DNA from: Verrucomicrobiota bacterium
GTDB taxonomy: Bacteria > Verrucomicrobiota > Verrucomicrobiia > Verrucomicrobiales > Verrucomicrobiaceae
DNA length: 64,000 nt
Direction: 5' to 3'
Assembly (NCBI GenBank): GCA_043758025.1
Contig: JAYVOH010000098.1
Location: 199-64,198, forward strand
Both the position numbers and the translations under genes were made by a program. The notes under the pieces are model-generated. The model saw only the letters and a list, made by a program, of their open reading frames with translations, did not search any database and was not told the origin of the DNA. Below, one piece after another: positions 1-12,459 of this stretch. Numbering within the stretch: position 1 is the first letter of the stretch; every line of letters begins with the position of its first letter.

Positions 1-3000
1 CGGCGCGGGTGTGGTCACCTTCGGCGGCACTGTGACCCAGGCCTCAGGCAGCCGGAAGCTGACGAAATCCGGCACCGGCACGCTGACGCTCAACGGCGCG
101 AACACGTTCGTCGGCGGACTCATTGTGAACGCCGGCACGGTCATCCTCGGAACCAACACGGCCGCGGGCACTGGCACCTTCACGATGAGCACCGCCACCA
201 TCCAGGCCGGCGGCGCGGCGCGCACCCTCGCCAACGCCGTCACCCTCCTGGGCAACACGACCTTCAGCGGCGCCTACGACCTGACCTTCACCGGCGCGAC
301 CGTAGTGGCCGCCACGCGCACGCTCACCGTCAGCAACACGAGCACCACCTTCAGCGGCGTCATCAGCGGTGCGGGCGGACTGACGAAGGGCGGCTCCGGC
401 GCCCTCACGCTGGGCGGCGCTTCCGCGAACACCTTCGGCGGCAGCGTGACGGTGAATGACGGCACGCTCGTTTTCAACAAGACGGCGGGCGTGGATGCGA
501 TGGCCGGCACGGTGCTGACCATCGGCGACGCGGCGGGCGCGGCCAATTCCGCCACCTTGCAGCTCAGCGCCTCGAATCAGATCCCTGACACCGCGGGCGT
601 GACGGTCAACGCCGACGGCCAGCTCAATCTGCAAGGCTTCACCGATGCGATCGGCACGCTGACGATGAGCGGCGGCAGTGTGACCGGCACTGGCACCTCG
701 CTGCTCGTCCTCGGCGGCGATCTCACCGTGACCGCGACCGGAACGAATGTCGCACAGATCACCGCGAACGTCGGCCTCAACGCCAACCGCACTTTTACGA
801 TCAACGACAACGCCGTTTCCACGGACAACGACCTCGCCATTTCCGGCATCATTTCCACCGCCTTCGCGCTCACGAAGACCGGCGCGGGCACGCTGCTGTT
901 GAGCGGCACCAACACCTTCAGCGGCGGCGTGAACGTCAACGCCGGCACGCTCTCCATGGACAACGCCGCCGCGCTCGGCACCGGCGCGGTGAACGTCGGC
1001 GACACCGCCGGCACGAGCGGCGCGACTTTGCTCTTCAGCGCCACGGGAGGACGCACCGTGACGAACGCCATCGCCGTGCGCGCCGGCAGCAGCGGCACCG
1101 CGACGCTCGGCGGCCTGAACACGGGCGGCGCGAACATTTTCGGCGGCAACATCACGCTCAACAAGTCCGTCACGCTCACTGCCGCAGCGGGCGGCGAGGT
1201 GGCCTTCAACGGCGTGATCTCCGGCGCGCTCTTCGGCCTGACGAAGATCGGCGCGGGCACCGTGCGCCTCGGCGGCGCAAACACCTACACCGGCCTGACC
1301 ACGATCAGCACGGGCACGCTGGCCTATGGTGCCAGCAACGTGATCGCCACCGGCAGCGTGACCGTGGATGGTGCGACCGCAGTGCTCGATCTCGGCGCGA
1401 GCCGCACCGACACCGTGGGCCAGGTCATTCTCGACAACGGCGGCGTCATCACCGGCAGCGGCACGTCCGCGCTCGGCAGCACCGCAGCGTTCGATGTGCG
1501 CAACGGCTCCGTCGCCATCCCGCTCGGTGGCAGCGTCGCGCTGACGAAATCCACCAGCGGCACCGTCGTGCTCTCCGCGGCGAACACTTATACCGGCGCG
1601 ACCACGATCAGCGCGGGCACGCTCCAGCTCGGCGTCGCCAGCAGCATCCCATCCGCTTCCGCAGTCAGCGTCTCCGGCGGCGCGACGCTTGATCTCGGCG
1701 GCTTCAATCAAACCATCGGCTCGCTGGCCAGTGCGGGCACGGCGGCGCTCGGCGCGGCCACGCTCACGACGGGCGGCGACAATACCTCCACCACTTTTTC
1801 CGGCGTCATCGGCGGCACGGGCGGCCTGACAAAAAACGGCAGCGGCGTCTTCACTGTCAGCGGCACCAACACCTTCACCGGCGCGACCGCGATCAACGCG
1901 GGCACGCTCAAACTCGGCGCGGCGGGCGGCCTCCACAGCGCCACGGCGGTGAGCGTCGCGGGCGGGGCGACGTTCGATCTCAACAGTTTCTCCGCGACCG
2001 TCGGCTCGCTCGCCGGCGCGGGCAGCGTCACGCTCGGCAGCGGCGGGCTGAATACGGGTGGCAATAATTCAACCACGACCTTTTCGAACGCGATCAGCGG
2101 CAGCGGCGGGCTGACCAAAAGCGGCACCGGCACGCTCACGCTCACCGGCACCAACACCTTTACCGGTGCAGTTGCAGTCAACACCGGCACCCTGGCGCTC
2201 TCCGGCGCGTCCGGCCGCGCGGCCAGCGCGTCCGGTTTCACCATCGGCACCGGCGCGACGCTGACCCTCGACAGCAACGCGGGCGAAAACGCCGACCGCA
2301 TCGGCAACGGCGCGGCAGTCACGTTCACCGGCGGCACGCTGCGCTTCCTCTCCGACGGCAACGGCTCGACGGAAACCGTCGGCGCGCTCAACGCCTCCGG
2401 CGGCGCATCCACCATCACAGTCACGCACAACGGCGCGGTCACGGACAGCACCTCGCTCACGTTCAGTTCGCTCGGCACCATCGCCGGCGGGGCGACCGTG
2501 AATTTCACCGCCACGGGCGGCACCCTCGGCTCCACCACCACCGGCCCGCACATTTACATCGCCGGCCAGGCGAACGGGCTGCTCGGCGGCTGGGCGACGG
2601 TCGGCAGCAACTTCGCCGAATATTACATCGACGGCGTCCGCGCCTTCAGCAGCTACTACACCGGCAGCCTCGGCATCAACATCAACGACGCCGCAAAAAT
2701 CCCGCAGTTGGGCAGCAGCTCGCCTTCCACCGCTTACACGCTGACCAATGCGGGAACGACGACCGATCTTGGCTTGAATCTCAACGACCTCGCCACCGTG
2801 GATCTCGGCGCGGCGTCCACGCGCACGCTCAATCTCGCGGGCGGCGGCCTGATCAAAAGCACCGCCACCGCGACGACCATCTCCGGCGCCGGACGGCTCA
2901 CCGCGGGCGGCACGGCTAGCGGCACGCTCTCGGTTTCGGTGGACACGGGCCACACGCTCACGATTTCATCGGTCATCATCAACAACGCCGGCGTGAACGG

Positions 3001-6000
3001 CACCTACGGCGATGGCGACGACGGCGTGGTCTCGCTCTCGAAAGGCGACGCGGGCCTGCTCGTCCTCAGCGGCGCGAGCACCTTCGGCGGAAGCGTTTTC
3101 ATCAACGCGGGCACCGTGCAGATCGGCGCGGAAAACAATCTCGGCGCGTCGGCCAACGGCGTGATCTTCGGCGGCGGCACGCTCAGCGTCACCGCTGGCT
3201 TCACCGCGGGCACGGGGAAAGTTCTCACCGTCAGTTCCGATCTCAGCGGCACGCTCGACATTGCCTCGGGGCAGACGCTCACGCTCGGCAACGCCAGCGA
3301 CGTGCTCACCACCGGCAACACCGCGGGCGTGCTGCTCAAGGCCGGCGCGGGCGCGCTCGTGATCCAGGCGGCGAACCCCGCCTTCGACGGCACGATGCAA
3401 ATTGACGCGGGCAGCGTCGAGCTGCGCCACGCGCAGTCGCTCGGCGACTCGGTGAACCGCGGGCGCATCACGCTCAACGGCGGCACGCTCAAGCTGCGCA
3501 ACGACACGGGCACGAACTTCGCGAATGACGTGACCGTCGCCGCCAGCTCGACGGTGGATGTCGCGCGGCTGACCGGAACCACGCCCGCCGTCACGCACAC
3601 GCTCGGCGCGCTTTCCATCGGCACCCAGACGCTCACGATCAGCGGCAGCAACGGCGCGGCGCTCACCTTCGGCGCGGTCACGCTCACCGGCGGTGCGACG
3701 TTCAATCCGACGACCGCGGATGCCACGCTCGCTGCGGTTTCCGGCATGTTTGGATTCACAAAAACCGGCGCCGGCACGCTCGTGCTCAACGGCGCGGGCA
3801 GCTACACGGGCACGGCGACGGTGAGCGTCGGCACGCTGCGCCTCGGCGTCGCAGGCGGTGTGGCCTCGACATCGGCGGTCAGCGTCGCCAGCGGCGCGAC
3901 TTTCGATTTGAACAGCCTCAGCGCGACCATCGGATCGCTCACCGGCGCGGGCAGCGTCACCCTCGGCAGCGGCACGCTCACGACCGGCGGCGACAACACC
4001 AGCACGACTTTCTCCGGCGTCATCAGCGGCGGCGGCGGCCTCACAAAAACCGGCAGCGGCGTTTTCACCGTCAGCGGCACGAACACTTACTCGGGCATCA
4101 CCAGCGTCAGCAGCGGCGTGCTCAGGCTCGGCAGCGCGGGCGGCGTGCCGTCTTCCTCCGCGCTCAGCGTCAGCGTCGCGATCGGCGCGACTTTTGATCT
4201 GAACAATTTCAGCGCGACCATCGGCTCGCTCAGCGGCGCGGGCAGCGTCACGCTCGGCAGCGGCACACTCACCAGCGGCGGCGACAACACCTCGACCACC
4301 TTCTCCGGCGTCATCAGCGGCACCGGCGGCCTGACGAAAACTGGCACGGGCGCGCTCACGCTCTCCGGCGCGGACACCTTCACGGGCGCGGTCAACGTCA
4401 ACAACGGCGTCGTCATTGCCCAGGACTCCGCCGCGCTCGGCAGCACCGCGGGCGGCACGACCGTCGCCTCCGGCGCGGAGCTGCGAATCGCAGGCGGCAT
4501 CGCCGTCGGCGCGGAGCCGCTGACGCTGAGCGGCAGCGGCACGGGCAGCGCGGGAGCGTTGCGAATCATCAGCGGCATCGCCTCGGCCGCGGGCAACATC
4601 ACGCTCGCGGCCGCGGCATCCATCGGCGCGGACGCCGGCCAGCTCACGCTCGGCGGCACGATCAGCGGCGGCACGAACACCCTGACCTTCACCGGCGCGG
4701 GCAACATCCAGGCCGACGGCATCATCAGCGGCAGCAGCGCCCTGGTGAAGAACGGCGCGGGCACGCTCAAGCTGACCGCGGCGAACACCTACACCGGCGC
4801 GACGACGATCAATGCCGGCGCGGTCAATGTGCAGAACGGCGCGGCGTTTGGCGCGACCGGCGCGGGCGCGGTGACTCTGGTGAGCGGCGCGGCGATTCAG
4901 CTCAACAACGCCAGCGGCATCAATGTCGGCAACAAATCACTCACGCTCAACGGCACCGGCATCAGCGGCGCGGGCGCGATTGACAGCATCCTCGGACACC
5001 ATTCGTGGGCGGGCAGCATCACGCTCGCCACCGACACGACCATCGCCGTGGACGCCGACAGCCTCACGATTTCCGGCGTGATCGGCGAATCGGGCGGCGC
5101 GCGCGCGCTGACGAAGACCGGCGCGGGCACGCTCGTGTTCGTCGGCAGCAATTCCTACACCGGCGCGACGCTGATCAACGCCGGCATCCTTCAGCTCGGT
5201 TCCTCAGAGCGCATCGGCGACACCTCGGCGGTGCTCATCGCCGCGGGCGCGACACTTAATTTCAACGACTTCGATGAAACCGTCGGCTCGCTCGCGGGCG
5301 CGGGCACGGTTGATTTCGGCACGCTCCTCACCGCGTCGCTCAGCTCCGGCGGCGACAGCACCAGCACGACCTTTTCCGGCGTGCTCACCGGCACCGGCGA
5401 CCTCATCAAGACCGGCAGCGGCACCCTGACGCTGAGCGGCGCGAACACCTTCACCGGCACCGTGTTCATCAACGGCGGCGTGCTCTCGATTGACAGCGAC
5501 GCGCGGCTCGGCAACAGCGCCAACGCGCTCAACTTCGGCGGCGGCACACTCAAGCTGACCTCGGCGTTGACGATCAGCCGCGCCATCACCCTGAGCAGCG
5601 GCGGAACCGTGGACACCGCTGGCGTGAATTCCACCATCAGCAGCGCGATCGGCGGCGTCGGTTCGTTCACCAAGTCGGGCGCGGGCACGCTGAGCCTGAC
5701 CACGGCGAATAGCTACACCGGCGACACCACCGTGAGCACTGGCACGCTAAGCATCGGCTCCAGTGGCGCGATCGTAAGCGCGAACGTGGGCGTCAGCAGC
5801 GGCGCGACGCTTTCCATTGTCAGCGGCGGCACGATTCCCACCACCACCGCGCTGACCACGGACGGCACGGTGAATTTCAACAGCGCGACCGCCACCATCG
5901 CCTCGCTCAGCGGCGCGGGCACCGGCGTGCTCACCCTCAACAGCACCACCCTCACCGTCAGCAGCGGCAGCTACGCCGGCGTGGTGCAAAACGGCGCCAG

Positions 6001-7933
6001 CACGGGCAGCCTGACCAAGACCAGCACCGGCACCTCGACGCTCACCGGGGCGAACACTTACACCGGCGCGACGACCGTGAACCTCGGCACTCTGGCCCTG
6101 GGCACCGGCGGGTCGCTCGGAGGGACAGCCGTGACCGTCGGCAGTGGCACCACTCCGACCGCCACGGCGGGCAACGCCACCTTGCAGATCAATGGAAACT
6201 ATACCATCGGCACCACCTCCCTGGGCGGCCTCACCATCAAGGGCGGCAACACCGGCGGCACGCCTTTGGGCCAGGGAACGCTGAGCTTGCAGGATACGAC
6301 GATCAACACCCTGACTCTGGCCAACACCTCGGCCACCACGAACCTGACCCTCGGCGGCACCGCTGGAAATCCCTCCCTCCTGAGCTTCGACCTGGGCAAC
6401 TCCTCCACCGACCTCATCGCCGTCGGAAAAAAACTGACGCTCAACGCAGGTGGCGCAGTCATCAGCCTTAACCAGCTTGCCGGCACCAACATCGCCAACG
6501 GAACCTACACCCTGCTGAGCTTCACGGCCTTTGGCAGTGCTCCAGCGGGCGCATTCAGCCTGGCCGCCGGCAGCACGGTCTTCGGCGGTCACGCGTTTTC
6601 GTTGAGCGCTTATTCGAGCAGTTCCACAATCGAGTCGCTGATCGTCACCTCCAATGTCATTCCACCCATTGCCTACTGGACCGGGAGCCAGGACACATTT
6701 TGGAATTCTTTTGGCATCAGCCAGGTGAATACGAACTTCAGCACGGATGCCGCTGGCACCACGAATCCCAACCAGCTTCCAGGAAGCATCACGGATGTTT
6801 TCTTCACCGCCAACAGCGCCGCCAACCTCTCCACGACGCTCGGTTTGGACTTTTCCATCAAGAGTCTGACCTTCACCGGCACCGGCACCACGGCAGCTTC
6901 CAGCTCCGTGACCATCGGCGGCGCGAACACGCTCACGCTGGGCACCGGCGGCATCACGGTTCAGACCGGCTCCGCCGCCCACACCATCAGCAGCAACGTG
7001 GCCCTTGGCGTGGCCCAGTTCTGGACCAACAACAGCGGCAGCCTCCTGACCGTGAGCGGCAACGTCAGCAACAGCACTTACCTTCTCACCGTGGCCGGCA
7101 GCGGCAGCACCACCATTTCCGGCATCATCGGCAGTGGCAGCGGTGGCCTGACGAAGACCGGCGCAGGCACGCTCACGCTCTCCGGGCTGAACACTTACAC
7201 CGGGGCGACGTCAATCACCGGCGGCACGCTGCAAGCCGGCGTCGCGGGCGTGGGCCAGACCGGCGCCGGAGTGACTACCGTGGGCGATGGCACGAATGCG
7301 GCGACACTTGCCGGAACCGGCACCATCAGCGGCACAGTCAATGCCACCAATCACATCATTCGTGGTGTCGCCTCATTAAAGCCTGGGGACAGCGGCGGCA
7401 ATCTCAACGGTGCCTTGACCTTTAATGGCAACCTCAACCTCAACAACAATTCGCAGACGATTCTCCAGATCACCACCCGCACCGCCACCGCCGGGACATT
7501 CGGCGGCAACCCTGTCGGCTCCGCCGCCTACATCGCCTACCTCGCCGCCAACGTCGCCACCTGGAACAGCGCCACGCCCGGCAACCATGACAGCATCACC
7601 GTCAACGGCACGATAACCCTCGGCACTAACGCCGCGGGATTGATTCAGGTGCTGGACAACGGCTACGTCAGCCAAGCTCTACTTGGCGACGTCTATGATT
7701 TGCTGGACTGGAACAGCATCGTTGTGGGCAGTTTCAATTCGGGAACCACCATCCGCTCCGGTGGTGCCGGCGGTGGCGATCTCTTTCTGCCCGACCTCTC
7801 GGCGCGAGGACTCGGTTGGGACGTGCGCCACTTCACTAGTTCTGGAGTTCTCGTCGTAGTGCCGGAGCCGTCACGCGCAGTTATGATCTCGGCGGGGCTG
7901 GCTGCACTTTTGCTGCGCCGGAAAAGGCGCTGA
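1..7933 (+). CDS. Giant cell-surface protein, autotransporter-associated beta-strand repeat type, PEP-CTERM anchored (5' end outside window)
   Basis: The frame is open from the window edge to the TGA at 7931-7933. It encodes >2600 aa of Gly/Thr/Ala/Ser/Asn-rich beta-strand repeats (..GTGTLTLSGANTFTG..). The C-terminus VPEPSRAVMISAGLAALLLRRKRR is a PEP motif plus hydrophobic helix plus basic tail, typical of exosortase substrates. Confidence 0.9.
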   Translation, partial: GAGVVTFGGTVTQASGSRKLTKSGTGTLTLNGANTFVGGLIVNAGTVILGTNTAAGTGTFTMSTATIQAGGAARTLANAVTLLGNTTFSGAYDLTFTGATVVAATRTLTVSNTSTTFSGVISGAGGLTKGGSGALTLGGASANTFGGSVTVNDGTLVFNKTAGVDAMAGTVLTIGDAAGAANSATLQLSASNQIPDTAGVTVNADGQLNLQGFTDAIGTLTMSGGSVTGTGTSLLVLGGDLTVTATGTNVAQITANVGLNANRTFTINDNAVSTDNDLAISGIISTAFALTKTGAGTLLLSGTNTFSGGVNVNAGTLSMDNAAALGTGAVNVGDTAGTSGATLLFSATGGRTVTNAIAVRAGSSGTATLGGLNTGGANIFGGNITLNKSVTLTAAAGGEVAFNGVISGALFGLTKIGAGTVRLGGANTYTGLTTISTGTLAYGASNVIATGSVTVDGATAVLDLGASRTDTVGQVILDNGGVITGSGTSALGSTAAFDVRNGSVAIPLGGSVALTKSTSGTVVLSAANTYTGATTISAGTLQLGVASSIPSASAVSVSGGATLDLGGFNQTIGSLASAGTAALGAATLTTGGDNTSTTFSGVIGGTGGLTKNGSGVFTVSGTNTFTGATAINAGTLKLGAAGGLHSATAVSVAGGATFDLNSFSATVGSLAGAGSVTLGSGGLNTGGNNSTTTFSNAISGSGGLTKSGTGTLTLTGTNTFTGAVAVNTGTLALSGASGRAASASGFTIGTGATLTLDSNAGENADRIGNGAAVTFTGGTLRFLSDGNGSTETVGALNASGGASTITVTHNGAVTDSTSLTFSSLGTIAGGATVNFTATGGTLGSTTTGPHIYIAGQANGLLGGWATVGSNFAEYYIDGVRAFSSYYTGSLGININDAAKIPQLGSSSPSTAYTLTNAGTTTDLGLNLNDLATVDLGAASTRTLNLAGGGLIKSTATATTISGAGRLTAGGTASGTLSVSVDTGHTLTISSVIINNAGVNGTYGDGDDGVVSLSKGDAGLLVLSGASTFGGSVFINAGTVQIGAENNLGASANGVIFGGGTLSVTAGFTAGTGKVLTVSSDLSGTLDIASGQTLTLGNASDVLTTGNTAGVLLKAGAGALVIQAANPAFDGTMQIDAGSVELRHAQSLGDSVNRGRITLNGGTLKLRNDTGTNFANDVTVAASSTVDVARLTGTTPAVTHTLGALSIGTQTLTISGSNGAALTFGAVTLTGGATFNPTTADATLAAVSGMFGFTKTGAGTLVLNGAGSYTGTATVSVGTLRLGVAGGVASTSAVSVASGATFDLNSLSATIGSLTGAGSVTLGSGTLTTGGDNTSTTFSGVISGGGGLTKTGSGVFTVSGTNTYSGITSVSSGVLRLGSAGGVPSSSALSVSVAIGATFDLNNFSATIGSLSGAGSVTLGSGTLTSGGDNTSTTFSGVISGTGGLTKTGTGALTLSGADTFTGAVNVNNGVVIAQDSAALGSTAGGTTVASGAELRIAGGIAVGAEPLTLSGSGTGSAGALRIISGIASAAGNITLAAAASIGADAGQLTLGGTISGGTNTLTFTGAGNIQADGIISGSSALVKNGAGTLKLTAANTYTGATTINAGAVNVQNGAAFGATGAGAVTLVSGAAIQLNNASGINVGNKSLTLNGTGISGAGAIDSILGHHSWAGSITLATDTTIAVDADSLTISGVIGESGGARALTKTGAGTLVFVGSNSYTGATLINAGILQLGSSERIGDTSAVLIAAGATLNFNDFDETVGSLAGAGTVDFGTLLTASLSSGGDSTSTTFSGVLTGTGDLIKTGSGTLTLSGANTFTGTVFINGGVLSIDSDARLGNSANALNFGGGTLKLTSALTISRAITLSSGGTVDTAGVNSTISSAIGGVGSFTKSGAGTLSLTTANSYTGDTTVSTGTLSIGSSGAIVSANVGVSSGATLSIVSGGTIPTTTALTTDGTVNFNSATATIASLSGAGTGVLTLNSTTLTVSSGSYAGVVQNGASTGSLTKTSTGTSTLTGANTYTGATTVNLGTLALGTGGSLGGTAVTVGSGTTPTATAGNATLQINGNYTIGTTSLGGLTIKGGNTGGTPLGQGTLSLQDTTINTLTLANTSATTNLTLGGTAGNPSLLSFDLGNSSTDLIAVGKKLTLNAGGAVISLNQLAGTNIANGTYTLLSFTAFGSAPAGAFSLAAGSTVFGGHAFSLSAYSSSSTIESLIVTSNVIPPIAYWTGSQDTFWNSFGISQVNTNFSTDAAGTTNPNQLPGSITDVFFTANSAANLSTTLGLDFSIKSLTFTGTGTTAASSSVTIGGANTLTLGTGGITVQTGSAAHTISSNVALGVAQFWTNNSGSLLTVSGNVSNSTYLLTVAGSGSTTISGIIGSGSGGLTKTGAGTLTLSGLNTYTGATSITGGTLQAGVAGVGQTGAGVTTVGDGTNAATLAGTGTISGTVNATNHIIRGVASLKPGDSGGNLNGALTFNGNLNLNNNSQTILQITTRTATAGTFGGNPVGSAAYIAYLAANVATWNSATPGNHDSITVNGTITLGTNAAGLIQVLDNGYVSQALLGDVYDLLDWNSIVVGSFNSGTTIRSGGAGGGDLFLPDLSARGLGWDVRHFTSSGVLVVVPEPSRAVMISAGLAALLLRRKRR

Positions 7934-7935
7934 AC
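7912..7935. repeat. Direct repeat copy 1 (24 nt, GCTGCGCCGGAAAAGGCGCTGAAC), overlaps stop codon of giant PEP-CTERM gene
   Basis: Perfect 24/24 match to 10904-10927, read directly from the sequence. Confidence 0.9.
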
Positions 7936-7990
7936 AAATATTTAGCGCCCATCTCGCCGAAGATGGATGCGGCGCTTGCGGAGTATACTT

Positions 7991-8707
7991 TCAGTTTGCA
8001 GTCCGAACTTTCTTTGGCGCACCGCCTCGATACCCGCTCGGTGCCTCCAGCAGCCGCATTTGAGGGTCCACGTGACCTTTCCGTTGCGCCACATTCTGTA
8101 GAGAGTTCTGCTCGACGTCTTCATTGCCCCATTGATGCCAACCTAGACGCTTGAAACGAGCGAACAATTCGAGAAAAGGGCCTGGCGAACATGATTCAAT
8201 GATGTCGTAGATCTCGTCCGGCTTCCGGCTGTGCTCACGTTTGCGCGTTGCCAGCATATTCACCTGTGTCCGCCCCGGCTTGAGCGTCCTCATTGATCCA
8301 CGCACACCGAACAAAATCAGTTCAGTGACATTGCGGAAATAAAATCCAACTCCCCGACCATCAGGCCCGCCGTCTTTCCGCACCTTAAACCAGACCACGT
8401 TTGATTTGTAGGTGAACCCCCACGCTTTCATCACTTGAAGACCTTCTTGCAACAAGGCATTGGGAACCCACAAGTAGAGATGAGACTGAGCGGCAGCGAG
8501 TTTCCCGATGGGAAGATCCATGATCTCTTGGAGTTCCATGGTCGGATAGCGAAGCAGCCGCCGATGCTCTGGCGCGACCTTGCCTGTGGAATTCTGAAAG
8601 CGCCAAGGCGGGTCTGCCACGATTGTGGAATATCGGCCTTCGACCTTCTGAAGAAGATCTTCGGCGGGGGCAGGCTCAGGCGAGTGGATGCTAACAATCT
8701 TCGACAT
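7991..8707 (-). CDS. MT-A70 family N6-adenine DNA methyltransferase
   Basis: DPPW catalytic motif in ..YSTIVADPPWRFQN.., then ..HLYLWVPN..AWGF..WFK..; the C-terminal part SRKPDEIY matches the MT-A70 fold pattern. The start is placed at ATG 8707 (MSKIVSIH); the longest ORF would start at 8755. It overlaps the upstream endonuclease stop by 17 nt. Confidence 0.8.
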   Translation of the reverse strand: MSKIVSIHSPEPAPAEDLLQKVEGRYSTIVADPPWRFQNSTGKVAPEHRRLLRYPTMELQEIMDLPIGKLAAAQSHLYLWVPNALLQEGLQVMKAWGFTYKSNVVWFKVRKDGGPDGRGVGFYFRNVTELILFGVRGSMRTLKPGRTQVNMLATRKREHSRKPDEIYDIIESCSPGPFLELFARFKRLGWHQWGNEDVEQNSLQNVAQRKGHVDPQMRLLEAPSGYRGGAPKKVRTAN

Positions 8708-9317
8708 AAAGTTTTGAGGTGATTCCAAAGACAATGATCGGGCATCCACCACCACCGCCGCCTTCGATGCGCGGCAGAAGTTTACTCATGTGAGTCGTCG
8801 ATGCCCCAAACGATTCCCCGCGCCCAAGTTTAGCGACGACACTTTGAAGCTCATCACAGCGCGTGATGATGATCCCCACCGAGACGGTGCGAAGTTCAAA
8901 CAGCAGCCGGAAATTATTGAGGTCCCGATCATAAAATGGATCCTTGTTGTTCCATTCAATTTCTAGAGCGACACGATTCTTGAAGCAATCGACCTTGTGC
9001 GTTGGACTCTTAAACTCTGACTCATCCACAACAATCTTCGTGTCGAAGTGGCGTTCCGCCCATCCTTTCTTCTCAAACTCGCTGTCGATCCAGCCAGCCA
9101 CATCGCTCTTCCGACCTCCACCGACAGCAATGGCGCTTTTTAGCAACCGGAAGCGACCGAGCACATCATAAATGTCCGCGCATTGGTCTGAGAAATCAGC
9201 CTGCAGAATCGCCGACGCGTGTCTCCACTCATGGAGTTCATAATTCTCGCGGATAAATTCTGGAAAGTCTTCAAGTGCCACCGCGTGAGTTTTGCATCTT
9301 ACGGTGCGGAGCGCCAC
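8691..9317 (-). CDS. Type II restriction endonuclease, BglII/BamHI fold
   Basis: ..VDCFKNRVALEIEWNNKDPFYDRDL..VGIIITR..PIIVFGI.. parallels the BglII pattern IDFGKRDTLVEVQF..VAIIITKG..PIRLVGL (D..ExE/Q active-site block). GTG start at 9317. Sits next to methyltransferase genes. Visibly low GC. Confidence 0.7.
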   Translation of the reverse strand: MALRTVRCKTHAVALEDFPEFIRENYELHEWRHASAILQADFSDQCADIYDVLGRFRLLKSAIAVGGGRKSDVAGWIDSEFEKKGWAERHFDTKIVVDESEFKSPTHKVDCFKNRVALEIEWNNKDPFYDRDLNNFRLLFELRTVSVGIIITRCDELQSVVAKLGRGESFGASTTHMSKLLPRIEGGGGGGCPIIVFGITSKLYVEDC

Positions 9318-9418
9318 AAGAAATCATTATTCAGGTCAATCAGGTGGGCAAGGTGGGTCGTCACGACATCAATGCCAATCCACTGTCGCTTGAGCTTGTG
9401 CCGTTTACAGCGAACGAA
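9299..9418 (-). pseudogene. 3' remnant of a disrupted N4/N6 DNA methyltransferase (C-terminal AdoMet-binding region)
   Basis: The minus-strand frame reads FVRCKRHKLKRQWIGIDVVTTHLAHLIDLNNDFLWRSAP*. K(L)xRxWIGID followed by THLA is the conserved C-terminal block of beta-class DNA methylases. It begins immediately after the DUF4145 stop codon and has no start codon of its own. Confidence 0.6.
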
Positions 9419-10096
9419 TCACGTGCCCCGTGACTGCGCGTCTTTGCGGCCTCGCTCGACCATCGAAGGCAGGACATACATAAAAAGCCCAAGTGCCTTA
9501 GTAAAGTCGATACACTTCTTCGCATCTTCCTCCGTGGGAAGCGCAGCATCCTCATCGGCGTGACGCTCATTATTCGCATCAAGTCTTACATCATGGGCCC
9601 AAAGAGCCATCTCATCCGTGATGAGGCCTGCTGCCTTCGCGTCGTTGATTCTTTTGTTCAATGATCCTTCCTTCAACCCCTTCTGCTTTAGCATTGCATC
9701 CACGCTTGATGCACAAAGCATAATGGCACCGGATGGTGAGTGAAGACATTCGATCGCTTGGTTGAGAAATGATTCAGCCTTCGCGGGCAGGCCTTCCTGA
9801 ATTGCTTCCTGCCCTGGGAAAATCTCTGAAAGCGGATGTTCGTCGCTAAATGCCCATCCCAGCACAGCGCCGCCACATTTTGAGCAGACATAGACACGCC
9901 ACGATCTCGCCGAGGTTTGGTTGGAGTTATTAGTAGCAAAACGATGCACACTCTTGAGATAAGGGTTTGCGATGCTGCAATGCGGACATCGCGCAAGATT
10001 CAATGCATCGTCCGAAAGGCGGGTTGATGTCGAAGGGCGAGCCATAATCAATAGATTTTGAATTTCGTAGCACTTCAAAACTGCGTTTCCTGACAA
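9419..10096 (-). CDS. Zinc-ribbon + DUF4145 domain protein (defence-island associated)
   Basis: N-terminal CPHC..(x26)..CSKCGG zinc-ribbon-like pairs. The C-terminal helical region ..AIMLCASSVDAMLKQKG..LNKRINDA..GLITDEMALWAHDVRLDANNERHAD.. matches the DUF4145 pattern. An alternative start is ATG 10045 (MARPSTS). Visibly low GC. Confidence 0.65.
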   Translation of the reverse strand: MSGNAVLKCYEIQNLLIMARPSTSTRLSDDALNLARCPHCSIANPYLKSVHRFATNNSNQTSARSWRVYVCSKCGGAVLGWAFSDEHPLSEIFPGQEAIQEGLPAKAESFLNQAIECLHSPSGAIMLCASSVDAMLKQKGLKEGSLNKRINDAKAAGLITDEMALWAHDVRLDANNERHADEDAALPTEEDAKKCIDFTKALGLFMYVLPSMVERGRKDAQSRGT

Positions 10097-10542
10097 CCAA
10101 AGGCAAGATAGAGTGAGCCGGTGGGCTTGAGCACGCGATGCAGTTCCAGCAGGCGGTTGGCCATCATGGTGAGGTAGGCCATCATATTGTTCTCCCCGAG
10201 GAAGGCGCGCAGAGCCTGCATCATCGCCGCGACCGCGTTGTTCCGCTGGTGCAGCAGTTCATCGAACTCCCGCTCCGCCTGCTCGCCCCAATGCCATGAG
10301 TCCTCGAAGGCGGTGATCTGCGACTGGCTGTATTCTTGTAGGGCGTCTGTGCCAGACGCCGAAGCTTTGGGTGTTTCGCCGGTTGACACAACCGGCCTAC
10401 AGATATTCTTCGGCGACTTGAAGAGGAGGTTGTAGTCCCGCTTGGAGTTGAACGGCGGATCAAGGTAGATGAGGTCCACGCTCTCCGGCGCGATGGACTC
10501 GCGCAGGACGTAAAGGTTGTCGCCGTAGTAGAGCTGGTTCAT
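10075..10542 (-). pseudogene. 5' fragment of the same disrupted N4/N6 DNA methyltransferase
   Basis: MNQLYYGDNLYVLRESIAPESVDLIYLDPPFNSKRDYN.. carries the DPPF catalytic motif IV, followed by ..AFEDSWHWG..MMAYLTMMANRLLELHRVLKPTGSLYL. Homology then stops (AFGCQETQF*) at about nt 10104, where intact family members continue with HCD... Confidence 0.7.
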
Positions 10543-10653
10543 GCCGTGCCTGTCTTTGGGCGATGCTAACCCGAATGTCAACGATGTCTGCGGGCCGAAC
10601 GCCACACTGCCTTACCTTTAGGGGGATAGCTCTGGGGAAACGCTGAACAAAGG

Positions 10654-10714
10654 GTAGAAGCGACGCCCTCGTCGCTTGCTGCACTGGGATAAGCGACGGT
10701 GGCGTCGCTTCTAC
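10654..10714. repeat. Twin-hairpin palindromic element (clamp GTAG/CTAC, two hairpins with identical 8-bp stems AAGCGACG/CGTCGCTT)
   Basis: Hairpin A is 10658-10677 (loop CCCT) and hairpin B is 10691-10710 (loop GTGG). The outer 14-nt arms 10654-10667 and 10701-10714 are perfectly complementary. Confidence 0.7.
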
Positions 10715-10789
10715 TTGCGATTAATCAGCGCTTCCCAGTGCGGGCTAACAAGTTCGTGCCCTTGGCAGCGAGCGGAGTTTTTTTGCAGC

Positions 10790-10830
10790 GCACGCGCCCT
10801 CGCGTGCCAAAGTCCGCGCCTCCGCGGACT
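10790..10830. repeat. Two adjacent GC-rich hairpins with C-rich tetraloops
   Basis: GCACGCG-CCCT-CGCGTGC (10790-10807) and AGTCCGCG-CCTC-CGCGGACT (10811-10830). Confidence 0.6.
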
Positions 10831-10903
10831 CCCTGCGGATGCCACTTGTTGTTGGATCATCGAGGGCTTGCGCTTCGCGAGGGCGCAAAGGGCCGCACGC
10901 GAG

Positions 10904-10927
10904 GCTGCGCCGGAAAAGGCGCTGAAC
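10904..10927. repeat. Direct repeat copy 2 (24 nt) closing the restriction-modification islet
   Basis: Perfect match to 7912-7935. Confidence 0.9.
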
Positions 10928-11001: not shown

Positions 11002-12459
11002 ATGGGCGATCTATCGTTATCTTTGTCATTCGATGACGTGCTTCTCCTCCCGGCCAAAAGCTCCGTGCTGCCGGGAGATGTGGAACTGGGCACGCAACTC
11101 ACGCCGCTCCTGCGGCTTCATATTCCCGTGCTGTCCTCTGCCATGGACACGGTCACGGAAAGCGAGCTGGCCATCGCGCTCGCTCGCGAGGGCGGCATGG
11201 GCGTGATTCACCGCGCATGTCCGATTGACTACCAGGTCGAGCAAGTCGCGCGGGTGAAGCGCTCGGAAAACACTGTTATTCACGACCCGCTGACCGTAAG
11301 GCCGGACATGACCTTGAGCGAAGTGACGCAGTTGATGCGCGAGCGCGGCGTGAGCGGCTTCCCCGTTGTCGATCAGAGCAATGTTCTCGTCGGCATGGTG
11401 ACGAGTCGCGACATGTGGTATATCGAGGACGATAACACACCCGTGAGCGAAGTGATGACGCCGCGCGAACGGCTGGCCACGGGCACACCGACGACCACGC
11501 AAGAGGAGGCGCTGAAGCAAATCTTCGTGCATCGCATTGAAAAACTTCCGCTGGTGGACAGCGCCGGACGACTCGCCGGATTGATCACGAAGCAGGATAT
11601 CGGGAAGATGCAAACCTTCACCAACGCCGCAAAAGATTCACATGGTCGCCTGCGTGTGGGCGCTGCCGTCGGCGTAAGCGAGGACTGCGTGCAGCGCGCG
11701 CTCTTGCTGCAAGCCGCGGGCGCGGATGCCGTGTTCATTGATGCCGCTACTGGTCACACAGATCGAGTGCTCAAGGTCATCTCGCAATTGCGCGAAGCCT
11801 TGGGCGAAAGGACGCCGATTGTGGCGGGCAACGTGGTCACGAAAGATGGCGCGAAAGATTTGTGCAATGCCGGCGCGTCAGCCATCAAGGTCGGCGTCGG
11901 CCCCGGTTCCATTTGCACCACGCGCATTATCTCCGGCGTGGGCATGCCGCAATTCACCGCTGTGCAGGAAGTCGCGGAAGTATGCCGCCCGCGCGGGGTG
12001 GCGGTCATTTCCGATGGCGGCATCCGTTACTCCGGCGACGTGGTCAAGGCCATCGCTGCGGGCGCAGACTGCGTCATGATCGGTTCTATTCTCGCGGGCA
12101 CGGCGGAAAGCCCCGGCGCGATGGTTCGCTGGCAAGGCCGCACTTTCAAAGAGTATCGCGGCATGGGTTCGCTCAAGGCGATGCGCAAGGGCGCGGGCGA
12201 CCGTTACGGCCAGAACTCATCCGGCAAGCTGGTGCCCGAAGGTGTGGAAGCGCGCGTGCCTTACAAAGGCCCGCTCAGCGAAGTCGTCTTCCAGCTCATG
12301 GGCGGTCTGCGCAGCGGCATGGGTTATGTCGGTGCCAACAATCTCGATGAACTGCGCAGCAAGGCGCGCTTCGTGCGCATCACCGCCGGCGGACTCAAGG
12401 AAAGCCATCCGCACGACATTCTGATCACCGAGGAACCGGTTAACTACGAGGTGGGCTAA
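11002..12459 (+). CDS. guaB: IMP dehydrogenase
   Basis: [10 protein letters not shown] start, tandem CBS region, catalytic loop [11 protein letters not shown], and ..GMGS..; length 485 aa. Confidence 0.95.

What the first reader, a model, noticed from the sequence alone, without database searches (positions are those of the whole stretch)
9299..10542. DNA methylase gene hollowed out and its interior replaced by a zinc-ribbon/DUF4145 cassette
The minus strand begins with a typical beta-class methylase (MNQLYYGDN..DPPFNS..LHRVLKPTGSLYL). Homology stops at about nt 10104. A conserved methylase C-terminal block (KLKRQWIGIDV..THLA) reappears at 9418-9299, in frame with nothing. That block still overlaps the downstream endonuclease start by 19 nt, which is classic M-to-R coupling. 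The ~680 bp in between is AT-richer and encodes only the DUF4145 protein. This is a precise replacement of the catalytic core of what was probably the endonuclease's original methylase. It implies either that the MT-A70 enzyme now protects the genome or that the endonuclease is inactive. It also shows a single-gene DUF4145 unit behaving as a mobile or recombining cassette inside a restriction-modification operon.
Basis: partly seen in the sequence, partly recalled or inferred. Interest (0 to 1): 0.7.

Follow-up and report, generated by a model that had tools for sequence, protein, structure and literature searches.

The report
Dead methylase scars around defence genes
A 3-kb piece of foreign DNA in a Verrucomicrobiota genome carries two apparently intact anti-phage systems (a restriction-modification pair and a RAZR-like suicide RNase) wedged between the leftovers of a third, destroyed methylase gene; this is mostly ordinary turnover of defence genes, and the methylase was not the restriction enzyme's partner.

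Summary
On the minus strand, a methylase N-fragment (10542-10105) and a short remnant of the same family's motif-I block (9400-9347; E 6.7e-6) flank an intact zinc-ribbon/DUF4145 gene (10045-9419). Intact homologues continue ...LYLHCDPTASHYLK and are about 540 aa.

In 79 of 79 related loci the BglII-family endonuclease is followed directly by an MT-A70 methylase, so MT-A70 is its cognate partner. The "19-nt M-to-R overlap" comes from taking the longest ORF: homologues start at the codon aligned with GTG 9281.

The DUF4145 protein has the architecture of RAZR/PD-T7-4, a characterised single-gene abortive-infection RNase. It keeps the Cys4 cluster and the R-x7-H pair. Its closest relative (68% identity) lies immediately upstream of an intact methylase of the destroyed family.

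The whole 2,992-bp islet is bounded by a perfect 24-nt direct repeat (7912-7935 and 10904-10927), so it is one insertion.

At least five other genomes show this methylase family hollowed out around different cargo genes. An apparent point hot spot for these breaks proved to be largely a ranking artefact. Interest is moderate to low: known kinds of system with a neat genomic scar.

The parts
7912..7935 (.). Direct repeat copy 1 (GCTGCGCCGGAAAAGGCGCTGAAC). It covers the last codons and the stop of the giant PATR/PEP-CTERM gene (11..7933) and marks one boundary of the islet.
   Evidence: perfect 24-nt repeat, spacing 2992; the 16-nt core occurs only at these two places without mismatch in 64 kb. 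By my estimate, the chance of such a repeat within 3.3 kb is about 2e-8.
7991..8707 (-). MT-A70-family DNA methyltransferase (238 aa, ATG 8707, DPPW motif present). It is the cognate methylase of the adjacent endonuclease, and its start overlaps the REase stop by 17 nt.
   Evidence: PF05063, E 2.3e-30. PADLOC MTase_II PDLC03221, E 1.7e-98; adjacent to the REase in 79 of 79 related loci; gene calls of 238 aa.
8691..9281 (-). BglII-family type II restriction endonuclease (196 aa from GTG 9281; the longest ORF reaches 9317). The D-x8-E-x-E motif (HKVDCFKNRVALEIEW) is present.
   Evidence: PF09195, E 8.6e-45, full-length match; start codon position inferred from 80 loci. The catalytic motif is read directly from the translation.
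9347..9400 (-). Remnant (about 18 codons, HKLKRQWIGIDVvtTHLA) of the block just after motif I of a Mod-like/Mrr_cat methylase. It is non-coding debris in frame with nothing.
   Evidence: E 6.7e-6, the only hit in the window; tblastn E 2e-5 to 8e-4 against intact family members; homologues read KLKRKWIGIDITHLAISLIEKRL.
9419..10045 (-). RAZR-like gene (208 aa): N-terminal Cys4 zinc ribbon plus a C-terminal DUF4145/HEPN-like domain with R154-x7-H162. It appears intact.
   Evidence: PF13643, E 4e-10. C20, C23, C54, C57, R154 and H162 are invariant in 36 homologues. PADLOC PD-T7-4, E 4e-4 (8 of 36 members hit). AF2 pLDDT 92.8; the full-length model's longest matches (about 120-150 columns) are to HEPN toxins 7AE6 and 5YEP, weakly. 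PMC13017515.
10046..10104 (-). 59-nt spacer between the 5' breakpoint and the RAZR-like start codon. It contains the 9 out-of-frame codons and the stop (10077-10075) that end the N-fragment ORF.
   Evidence: read directly from the sequence and from the alignment with intact homologues.
10105..10542 (-). N-terminal fragment (146 codons, ATG 10542) of a Mod-like beta-class N6/N4 methylase. It has motif IV (DPPF) through ...KPTGSLYL. It lacks motifs VII and VIII, the TRD, motifs X and I, and the Mrr_cat-like domain, so it is a pseudogene.
   Evidence: 71% identity to L092 aa 1-123; 79-80% DNA identity to the L170 methylase.
10543..10903 (-). Upstream non-coding part of the islet. It holds a 24-nt-arm inverted repeat (10654-10677 / 10691-10714) and GC-rich palindromes. 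It is the presumed promoter region, but no promoter was identified.
   Evidence: I1, 92% complementary; no sigma-70-like site here; a 21-nt palindromic motif at 10787-10807 is shared with the region upstream of the RAZR homologue in L170.
10904..10927 (.). Direct repeat copy 2, the other boundary of the islet, 74 nt before guaB (11002).

Best explanation
Nt 7936-10927 is a single 2,992-bp horizontally acquired defence islet. It was inserted between a giant surface-protein gene and guaB and is bounded by a 24-bp duplication of the target. It holds two apparently functional systems and one wreck.

1. A self-contained type II R-M module: a BglII-family endonuclease and its cognate MT-A70-family methylase, with genes overlapping by 17 nt. 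This pair travels as a unit across phyla, often flanked by long direct repeats.
2. A RAZR-like (PD-T7-4-like) single-gene abortive-infection system. By homology (inferred, not shown here), its zinc ribbon binds ring-shaped phage proteins such as the portal. Assembly on the ring then activates the DUF4145/HEPN RNase and shuts down translation.
3. The debris of a solitary Mod-like methylase with an Mrr_cat-like C-domain. This family is widespread in bacteria and phages.

The dead methylase was never the endonuclease's partner. It was linked to the RAZR-like gene: in the nearest relative, RAZR is translationally coupled to an intact copy.

The present order (N-fragment | RAZR | 18-codon remnant | R-M) arose through at least two illegitimate or homology-assisted recombination events. 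These removed the methylase's centre and then its 3' third, and selection kept only the defence ORFs.

Two routes are open. Either a single methylase had its interior replaced, or the N-fragment is a displaced copy upstream of a former RAZR-methylase operon whose methylase later lost its first 330 or so codons. The evidence does not decide between them.
For: R-M pair:
- REase followed by MT-A70 in 79 of 79 loci from Verrucomicrobiota, Planctomycetota, Proteobacteria, Bacteroidota, Chloroflexota and others.
- The start codon aligns with GTG 9281.
- The Pfam and PADLOC matches are strong.

Mobility:
- A perfect 24-nt direct repeat bounds the islet.
- The islet's G+C is 0.47-0.57, against 0.59-0.70 in the flanks.
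- Six other REase/MT-A70 modules are flanked by exact repeats of 20-64 nt. Chance expectation is about 1e-5 per locus.
- This matches the published 'insertion with long target duplication' of R-M units (PMC2853133).

RAZR-like gene:
- The architecture, the invariant Cys4 and the R-x7-H spacing are as in R146/H154 of E. coli RAZR.
- There is a weak PD-T7-4 HMM hit and a confident model whose best full-domain matches are to HEPN toxin folds.
- An identical protein is found on 8 contigs.

Dead methylase:
- The N-fragment ends inside the Rossmann fold, where homologues continue.
- The remnant is significant.

Linkage of RAZR to this methylase family:
- In L170/L171, RAZR (68% identity) overlaps by ATGA an intact 536-aa methylase that is 72% identical to the window N-fragment.
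- DNA identities are similar for both genes (71-80%).

Recurrence of the scar type:
- L202: aa 1-124 | HNH_2 | aa 323 onward.
- L135, L155, L203: interior replaced, or fused to the Mrr_cat part.
- L095, L150: N-fragment | cargo | full-length copy.

R-M modules abutting truncated methylases of this family occur in two further loci, L089 and L061.
Against: - No empty-site allele was found, so insertion with target duplication is inferred only from the repeat.
- 24 bp is shorter than the 30-bp threshold used in the published survey. An integrase acting in trans cannot be excluded.
- Sequence similarity to the PD-T7-4 model is weak (17.9 bits). No PDB sequence match to RAZR was obtained. Foldseek matches are all above E 0.01.
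- No activity of any of the three proteins has been tested.
- RAZR homologues in seven further loci, representing four distinct genomic contexts, have no methylase nearby. The RAZR-methylase linkage therefore rests on two related lineages.
- No promoter was identified.
Confidence: 0.72

Rival explanations
1. First reader's model. The Mod-like methylase was the endonuclease's original cognate methylase, coupled to it by overlapping reading frames. A mobile DUF4145 cassette precisely replaced its catalytic core, leaving MT-A70 as a substitute protector or the endonuclease inactive.
For: - The relics lie on the same strand, in the right order, directly upstream of the endonuclease.
- The remnant's frame ends 18-36 nt from possible REase starts.
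Against: - 79 of 79 relatives pair the REase with MT-A70, and none has an intact Mod-like methylase upstream.
- Homologous REases start at the codon aligned with GTG 9281, so there is no overlap.
- Intact members of the methylase family continue for about 180 codons (Mrr_cat-like domain) beyond the remnant. The remnant was therefore never a C-terminus abutting an R gene.
- Intact family members are mostly solitary and have no REase partner.
Confidence: 0.04
2. Sub-model A (true hollowing). One methylase gene lost codons 124 to about 332 in a single illegitimate recombination that put the RAZR-like ORF in their place. Later the R-M module replaced everything after codon 357 or so.
For: - It needs the fewest steps (two events).
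- Direct analogues exist in which the same family resumes after the cargo: L202 (aa 1-124 | HNH_2 | aa 323 onward), L135 (131 to 411) and L155 (121 to 394).
- The N-fragment and the RAZR gene show similar divergence from L170.
Against: - It does not explain why the nearest RAZR relative lies upstream of, and overlaps, an intact methylase of the same family.
- The remnant is too short to tell whether it belongs to the same allele as the N-fragment.
Confidence: 0.4
3. Sub-model B (two copies). An L170-type RAZR-methylase operon integrated into or next to a resident family methylase, giving N-fragment | RAZR | full-length methylase, as in L095 and L150. A deletion then removed the first 330 or so codons of the downstream copy, and the R-M module replaced its 3' end. 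The two relics therefore come from different gene copies.
For: - The L170/L171 operon.
- The L095 and L150 architectures. In L150 the duplicated segment runs exactly from the start codon to the break and is 92.5% identical, against a background of 67 +/- 7%.
- The variable 3' junctions in other hollowed loci fit secondary deletions.
Against: - It needs one more event than sub-model A.
- No trace of a methylase start codon follows the RAZR stop.
- No such intermediate was found for the RAZR cargo.
Confidence: 0.35
4. Docking-site model. The conserved 5' block of this methylase family is a specific target for insertion of promoter-less defence genes. This could work through a nuclease-induced break or through cassette circles integrating by homology. 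On this view the hollowing is the footprint of a dedicated cassette-capture mechanism rather than random decay.
For: - In the 80 loci (a sample that is not selected on anything downstream of aa 118, though it is not a random sample of the family), 8 junctions or deletions fall in codons 118-134 against at most 5 in codons 135-540.
- In 10 of 11 same-strand junctions the cargo start codon lies within 60 nt of the break.
- Cargo is defence-like: RAZR, a PLD nuclease, HNH, PDC-M24B/DUF1828 and the R-M module.
- The R-M module abuts truncated methylases of this family in 3 of 80 loci.
Against: - The striking protein-level 'hot spot' was a ranking artefact. With a shorter query the breaks spread evenly over aa 70-130.
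- DNA-level junctions are scattered over about 45 nt with no shared motif on the cargo side.
- One junction is an ordinary IS66 insertion and two are plain deletions.
- No recombinase is associated.
- All 26 viral copies matched; the 25 that lie wholly on their contig show no foreign insert (one has a frameshift-like break).
Confidence: 0.2

Closest known systems
RAZR / PD-T7-4 (ring-activated zinc-finger RNase; Vassallo et al. 2022 selection; Nature 2026, PMC13017515)
   Same: - A single gene of about 200 aa.
- An N-terminal Cys4 zinc ribbon.
- A C-terminal DUF4145 (divergent HEPN) domain with a conserved Arg and a His eight residues later (R146/H154 in E. coli; R154/H162 here).
- Widespread across phyla.
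- Weak but specific PADLOC PD-T7-4 hit.
   Different: - Only distant sequence similarity to the E. coli prototype (17.9 bits).
- From Verrucomicrobiota.
- Embedded between methylase relics and next to an R-M module.
- Its nearest relative is translationally coupled to a methylase, which has not been described for RAZR.
- Defence, ring binding and RNase activity are untested.
Type II R-M systems of the BglII/BstYI/BamHI endonuclease fold paired with an MT-A70-type (M.MunI-like) methylase
   Same: - Full-length PF09195 match.
- D-x8-E-x-E catalytic spacing as in BglII (D84/E93/Q95; from my own knowledge).
- Tightly overlapping R and M genes.
- The PADLOC MTase_II model matches at E 1.7e-98.
   Different: - M.BglII itself is a beta-class N4-cytosine methylase, whereas here the partner is MT-A70 family.
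- The recognition sequence is unknown.
- No solved structure matches by sequence.
Mobile R-M units: 'insertion with long target duplication' and allelic substitution at R-M loci (Nobusato 2000; Furuta 2010, PMC2853133)
   Same: - A small R-M-containing unit without integrase or transposase, bounded by a direct duplication of the target.
- Lower G+C than the host.
- Remnants of a previous methylase at the locus.
- Several homologous modules elsewhere are also bounded by 20-64-nt repeats.
   Different: - The repeat here is 24 bp, below the 30-bp threshold of that survey.
- No empty site was observed.
- The unit also carries a non-R-M defence gene and methylase debris.
HEPN/DUF4145 genes associated with R-M systems (Anantharaman et al. 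2013, PMC3710099); PrrC-type second-line defence inside R-M loci
   Same: - A DUF4145/HEPN gene in an operon-like arrangement with R-M genes.
- Fusion of DUF4145 to zinc ribbons is listed there.
- The proposed role is an abortive-infection backup to restriction.
   Different: - No evidence here that RAZR-like activity is regulated by the neighbouring R-M proteins.
- Its former methylase partner is dead.

Membership tests
RAZR / PD-T7-4 | N-terminal Cys4 zinc-ribbon domain | tested here: met
   CPHC...CSKC. C20, C23, C54 and C57 are invariant in 36 homologues. The N-terminal 76 residues are modelled as beta strands at pLDDT >90.
RAZR / PD-T7-4 | C-terminal DUF4145 (divergent HEPN) helical domain | tested here: met
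   PF13643, E 4e-10. Helices span residues 88-206. The longest Foldseek matches, spanning about 120-150 columns, are to HEPN toxins 7AE6, 7AE8 and 5YEP, with probability 0.97-0.99 but E 0.04-0.12.
RAZR / PD-T7-4 | Catalytic Arg and His with the spacing of R146/H154 | tested here: met
   R154 and H162 (VRLDANNERH) are invariant across the alignment. The spacing is identical to that reported in PMC13017515.
RAZR / PD-T7-4 | Significant sequence match to the family model or prototype | tested here: inconclusive
   PADLOC PD-T7-4: E 4e-4, 17.9 bits. 8 of 36 homologues hit, best 4.3e-5. The profile search found no PDB chain of RAZR.
RAZR / PD-T7-4 | Abortive-infection phage defence, activation by ring-shaped phage proteins, ssRNA cleavage | not testable with these tools
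   Needs cloning, plaque assays and biochemistry.
Type II R-M (BglII-fold REase + MT-A70 MTase) | REase domain with catalytic D...E-x-(E/Q) | tested here: met
   PF09195, E 8.6e-45, profile positions 1-163 of 163. The HKVDCFKNRVALEIEW motif is conserved in relatives.
Type II R-M (BglII-fold REase + MT-A70 MTase) | Cognate methylase adjacent and conserved as a pair | tested here: met
   MT-A70 is directly downstream in 79 of 79 related loci. The genes overlap by 17 nt here. The DPPW motif is present.
Type II R-M (BglII-fold REase + MT-A70 MTase) | Sequence-specific cleavage blocked by the methylase | not testable with these tools
   Needs expression and methylome analysis.
Beta-class N6/N4 DNA methyltransferase (Mod-like, with Mrr_cat-like C-domain) | Complete catalytic domain: motifs IV-VIII, TRD, motif X, motif I (FxGxG) | tested here: not met
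   Only motif IV through ...GSLYL (146 codons) and 18 codons after motif I remain. The FCGCGT motif I itself is absent. This is a pseudogene.
   The true start is inferred at GTG 9281 from 80 loci. The remnant's stop at 9301-9299 lies upstream of it. In the intact family the remnant is an internal segment, not a C-terminus.
Insertion with long target duplication (mobile R-M unit) | Direct repeat of target sequence at both ends, with no mobility genes inside | tested here: met
   A perfect 24-nt repeat at 7912-7935 and 10904-10927. The five ORFs or relics inside include no integrase or transposase.
Insertion with long target duplication (mobile R-M unit) | Empty site with a single repeat copy in a related genome | tested here: inconclusive
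   All contigs carrying the identical guaB either contain the islet or end before it. The collection scans were exhausted.

The most novel reading that the evidence does not exclude
The conserved 5' block of this widespread, mostly solitary Mod-like/Mrr_cat methylase family may act as a recurrent docking and expression platform for promoter-less defence genes. Cargo seen so far includes RAZR-like, PLD nuclease, HNH, PDC-M24-like genes and whole R-M modules. This produces N-fragment | cargo | (methylase) cassettes that could excise and re-integrate by homologous recombination between the duplicated 5' blocks. If so, it would be a recombinase-free cassette system for defence genes. A second, smaller novelty would be a functional RAZR-methylase partnership, as in the ATGA-coupled operon of L170.
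Probability: 0.2. Interest if true: 0.65.

Novelty: new member of a known kind. Interest (0 to 1): 0.38.

Why it matters
- It corrects an attractive but wrong story. There is no orphaned restriction enzyme here, and no methylase swap.
- It identifies the "domain of unknown function" gene as a probable member of a defence system whose mechanism was solved in 2026. That extends the system to Verrucomicrobiota and links it, in two lineages, to a particular methylase family.
- It gives a compact, datable example of how defence genes accumulate: a 3-kb repeat-bounded unit that stacks an R-M pair and an abortive-infection RNase on the ruins of a third system.
- The recurrence of the same kind of scar, with different cargo, in unrelated genomes hints at a homology-assisted route for spreading defence genes. 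That would be worth a systematic survey.

Tried and rejected
1. A point "hot spot" at KPTGSLYLHCDPTASH.
   - The first protein search returned only truncated homologues, many breaking there.
   - A control search with a 79-aa query again returned only the shortest proteins that just cover the query, with breaks spread evenly over aa 70-130.
   - The protein-level signal is therefore a ranking artefact. Only the weaker DNA-level enrichment is kept.
2. "The family is always truncated". Rejected: most of the 80 metagenome loci are intact ORFs (50 of more than 500 aa), and the 25 viral copies that lie wholly on their contig show no foreign insert. Some "truncations" are frameshifts in long-read assemblies (L008, L009).
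3. The methylase as a conserved downstream partner of variable upstream genes. Rejected: 46 of 68 intact copies have no coupled upstream ORF, and the rest are heterogeneous.
4. RAZR homologues generally linked to this methylase. Rejected: none is nearby in L172, L174, L201 or L209-L213.
5. Empty-site search through identical guaB contigs. Nothing informative.
6. Sequence search of the PDB for RAZR or BglII relatives. No useful hits.
7. NCBIfam. Nothing for the three intact proteins.
8. Promoter and terminator scan. Nothing above the shuffle expectation.
9. Homology between the region upstream of the N-fragment and the region upstream of RAZR in L170. Only a 21-nt palindromic motif is shared.
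10. Literature search for defence genes nested in methylase genes. Unproductive.
Full report
**What is there**

All features below lie on the minus strand between the end of a giant PATR/PEP-CTERM protein gene (11..7933, plus strand) and guaB (11002..12459). In order of transcription:

| Feature | Coordinates | Evidence |
|---|---|---|
| Methylase N-fragment ORF | 10542-10075 | PF01555 |
| Zinc-ribbon/DUF4145 ORF | ATG 10045 to 9419 | PF13643, E 4e-10 |
| Methylase-like peptide, in frame with nothing | about 9400-9347 | |
| BglII-family endonuclease | 9281/9317-8691 | PF09195, E 8.6e-45 |
| MT-A70 methylase | 8707-7991 | PF05063, E 2.3e-30 |

G+C is 0.47-0.57 across this block and 0.59-0.70 outside it. 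The same gene order is seen on the six places shown, from five samples, out of 10 contigs that carry the N-fragment protein. It is also present in a GTDB MAG named Verrucomicrobiota bacterium GL91_UP_metabinner_10. It is therefore not an assembly artefact.

**Checking the observation**

The N-fragment is 48-75% identical to the N-termini of a large family annotated "adenine-specific DNA methylase Mod".
- Intact members are 520-611 aa. They consist of a beta-class N6/N4 methylase domain followed by an Mrr_cat/NA-iREase1-like domain.
- Homology in the window ends exactly after ...KPTGSLYL (nt 10105). Every intact homologue continues HCDPTASHYLKIVLDG....

The downstream peptide is a genuine relic.
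- I built a profile of the family's motif-I region from 52 intact sequences and searched it against all 2,016 six-frame segments of the 64-kb window.
- It hits only 9302-9418(-), at E 6.7e-6, aligning qklkRkWiGiDi..thLa with HKLKRQWIGIDVvtTHLA, i.e. nt 9400-9347.
- The reciprocal tblastn gives E 2e-5 to 8e-4 against intact members.
- Only about 18 codons are recognisable. Motif I itself (FCGCGT) is gone.

I fetched 80 loci encoding relatives of the endonuclease from one-genome-per-species bacterial and archaeal genomes and located each window protein in them.
- In all 79 loci other than the window's own MAG, from at least ten phyla, the endonuclease is immediately followed by an MT-A70 methylase (60-80% identical to the window's).
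- None has an intact Mod-like methylase upstream.
- MT-A70 also matches a PADLOC type II methylase model at E 1.7e-98 and overlaps the endonuclease stop by 17 nt.

The endonuclease and MT-A70 are therefore a conserved, self-contained R-M pair.

The claimed 19-nt overlap depends on the GTG at 9317.
- In 66 of 80 loci an ATG aligns with window codon 13 (GTG 9281-9279), frequently with in-frame stops just upstream.
- The remnant's stop at 9301-9299 therefore precedes the real start.
- In intact family members the WIGID block is followed by about 180 more codons. It was never a C-terminus that could be coupled to an R gene.

**What the DUF4145 protein is**

The 208-aa product belongs to a well-conserved family of about 200-aa proteins (949 hits).
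- In an alignment of 36 members, C20, C23, C54, C57, R154 and H162 are invariant (VRLDANNERH).
- PADLOC's only hit is PD-T7-4 (E 4e-4; 8 of 36 members hit, best 4.3e-5).

PD-T7-4 has been renamed RAZR (PMC13017515). That paper reports:
- an N-terminal Cys4 zinc ribbon that senses ring-shaped phage proteins (portal, Gp77);
- a C-terminal DUF4145 domain that is a divergent HEPN RNase, with catalytic R146 and H154;
- activation when the protein assembles as a 24-mer around the phage ring, leading to RNA cleavage and abortive infection.

The Arg-to-His spacing is identical here. An AlphaFold2 model is confident (pLDDT 92.8). It has beta strands in residues 1-76 and helices in residues 88-206. The longest Foldseek matches, spanning about 120-150 columns, are to HEPN toxins 7AE6, 7AE8 and 5YEP, the same structures the RAZR paper uses. 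The E-values are only 0.04-0.12, and shorter matches to eIF5A rank alongside them. No PDB chain matches by sequence.

I therefore file it as RAZR-like. Architecture and catalytic residues are met, sequence membership is weak, and function is untested. Anantharaman et al. 2013 had already noted DUF4145/HEPN fused to zinc ribbons and in operons with R-M systems.

**Link between RAZR and the dead methylase**

- The closest homologue (P0122, 68% identity) lies in L170/L171, immediately upstream of an intact 536-aa methylase of this same family. Its stop overlaps the methylase start (ATGA).
- That methylase is 72% identical to the window's N-fragment.
- DNA identity to L170 is 79-80% for the N-fragment and 71-78% for the RAZR gene.
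- Seven further RAZR-homologue loci, representing four distinct genomic contexts, show no methylase.
- Intact methylases are mostly solitary, with heterogeneous neighbours.

The linkage is therefore specific to these two related lineages. It suggests that the dead methylase was RAZR's neighbour, not the endonuclease's.

**The islet as a unit**

- A perfect 24-nt direct repeat, GCTGCGCCGGAAAAGGCGCTGAAC, occurs at 7912-7935 (the last codons and stop of the giant gene) and at 10904-10927 (74 nt before guaB). The spacing is 2,992 bp.
- Everything discussed lies between the two copies, and no mobility gene does.
- I screened the other endonuclease loci for exact repeats bracketing the R-M pair. Six have repeats of 20-64 nt (L043 64, L054 30, L067 27, L053 22, L059 21, L076 20), where about 1e-5 per locus is expected by chance. 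In L053 the bracketed unit is only 1.5 kb.
- This matches "insertion with long target duplication" described for R-M units (PMC2853133).
- I could not find an empty site.

**Is the hollowing a recurrent phenomenon?**

Among 80 metagenome loci retrieved with the N-fragment, most carry intact ORFs (50 of more than 500 aa). Eight lose homology within codons 118-134. These eight, with three further N-fragment loci from contig look-ups (L202-L204), are:

| Locus | What follows the break |
|---|---|
| L095, L113 | A PLD-like nuclease gene; in L095 it is followed by a second, full-length methylase |
| L150 | DUF6978 and a DUF1828/PDC-M24B-like gene, then a full-length methylase (see below) |
| L140 | An IS66 insertion |
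| L135 | Interior replaced; the methylase resumes at aa 411 |
| L155 | Interior replaced (HNH gene plus IS200-like TnpA); the methylase resumes at aa 394 |
| L091 | A plain deletion |
| L106 | An unknown ORF |
| L202 (contig look-up) | aa 1-124, then HNH_2, then aa 323 onward; this is the window's closest analogue |
| L203 (contig look-up) | A new domain fused in frame to the Mrr_cat part |
| L204 (contig look-up) | An unknown ORF |

In L150 the first 375 bp of the full-length methylase are 92.5% identical to the N-fragment, and the duplication runs exactly from the start codon to the break.

The R-M module itself abuts truncated methylases of this family in two more loci: L089 (break at aa 43) and L061 (aa 57 and 455, opposite strand).

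In 10 of 11 same-strand junctions the cargo's start codon lies within 60 nt of the break.

**A correction to my own lead**

The first protein search returned 120 truncated homologues, many breaking at KPTGSLYLHCDPTASH. This looked like a point hot spot. A control search with a 79-aa query again returned only the shortest proteins that just cover the query, with breaks spread evenly over aa 70-130 and many obvious frameshifts. That signal is a ranking artefact.

What remains is the DNA-level sample, which is unbiased only for positions from aa 118 onward. It shows 8 events in codons 118-134 against at most 5 in codons 135-540. Junction nucleotides are scattered over about 45 nt, with no shared motif on the cargo side. 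I read this as enrichment of rearrangement in the highly conserved 5' block, the stretch with the longest near-identical DNA between alleles. It is compatible with homology-assisted illegitimate recombination. It is not evidence for a site-specific mechanism.

**Most likely history (inferred)**

1. A RAZR-like gene and a Mod-like/Mrr_cat methylase were neighbours.
2. Recombination left a 146-codon N-fragment upstream of RAZR and removed the methylase's centre. This happened either by direct replacement within one gene (sub-model A, about 0.4) or through an N-fragment | RAZR | full-length methylase intermediate like L095 and L150, followed by a 5' deletion (sub-model B, about 0.35).
3. The mobile endonuclease/MT-A70 module replaced everything after codon 357 or so.
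4. The composite landed between the giant gene and guaB with a 24-bp target duplication.

The order of steps 3 and 4 is not determined.

**How it works now (inferred)**

- MT-A70 methylates the endonuclease's recognition sites, and the endonuclease cuts unmodified incoming DNA.
- The RAZR-like protein is a second, abortive-infection layer.
- The methylase fragments are inert. The N-fragment region may supply the promoter and leader for RAZR, but this was not shown.

**Verdict**

- The sequence observation is sound.
- The headline interpretation (orphaned endonuclease, original methylase hollowed out, M-to-R coupling) is not.
- The components are new members of known kinds.
- The scar pattern is a modestly interesting example of defence-gene turnover.
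- There is an unproven possibility that this methylase family serves as a recurrent landing pad for defence genes.

Noticed in passing
window 7912-7935 and 10904-10927: A perfect 24-nt direct repeat brackets the whole 2,992-bp islet. Copy 1 is the 3' end and stop of the giant gene.
   Followed up: yes
window 10639-10650 (compare 7927-7938): A partial third copy of the repeat's right end plus its flank (CGCTGAACAAA) lies inside the islet, just before the hairpin region. It could mark a nested or older insertion boundary, or it could be chance (about 1e-3).
   Followed up: no
L043, L054, L067, L053, L059, L076 (endonuclease loci): Homologous REase/MT-A70 modules in unrelated genomes are bracketed by exact direct repeats of 64, 30, 27, 22, 21 and 20 nt. 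In L053 the bracketed unit is only about 1.5 kb. This suggests the R-M pair is a frequent 'long target duplication' traveller.
   Followed up: partly
L089 4819-4998; L061 4697-4975 and 6241-6471: The same R-M module abuts truncated Mod-like methylases in two other phyla. In the Bacteroidota locus the break is at aa 43. In the Rhodobacteraceae locus the module sits in inverse orientation between aa 57 and aa 455. Three of 80 loci is far more than chance adjacency.
   Followed up: partly
L170 5001-7285 and 8591-8674: A RAZR homologue is translationally coupled (ATGA) to an intact Mod-like/Mrr_cat methylase. A relic of another methylase C-terminus (aa 504-531) lies 1.3 kb downstream, hinting at allele replacement there too.
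   Followed up: partly
L150 8001-11287: N-fragment | DUF6978 + DUF1828 (PADLOC candidate PDC-M24B, E 1e-15) | full-length methylase. The 375-bp 5' block is duplicated at 92.5% identity, exactly from the start codon to the break. Homologous recombination could excise this structure as a circle.
   Followed up: partly
L203 5451-6659: An unknown 240-aa N-terminal domain is fused in frame to the Mrr_cat-like C-terminal part (aa 372-531) of the methylase. This is a possible new domain combination created by the same kind of rearrangement.
   Followed up: no
window 10654-10714 and 10787-10807: There is a strong hairpin (24-nt arms, 92% complementary) and a 21-nt palindromic motif, AGCGCACGCGCCCTCGCGTGC. 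The motif occurs once in the window and twice, inverted, upstream of the RAZR homologue in L170. It may be a REP/MITE-like or terminator element.
   Followed up: partly
window 11-7933: A very large ORF (more than 2,640 aa; it runs off the window start) made of PATR/autotransporter-like repeats. It has a C-terminal PEP-CTERM-like sorting signal (VPEPS...LLLRRKRR), which fits a Verrucomicrobiota origin.
   Followed up: no
tool behaviour: The word-indexed protein search lists the shortest proteins that just cover the query first. Apparent 'universal truncation' or break-point hot spots in its top hits are artefacts unless checked at DNA level.
   Followed up: yes
L175-L200 (viral contigs): The Mod-like/Mrr_cat methylase is carried on 26 IMG/VR viral contigs with no foreign insert in any copy. 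Phages are therefore a likely vehicle for its spread.
   Followed up: partly
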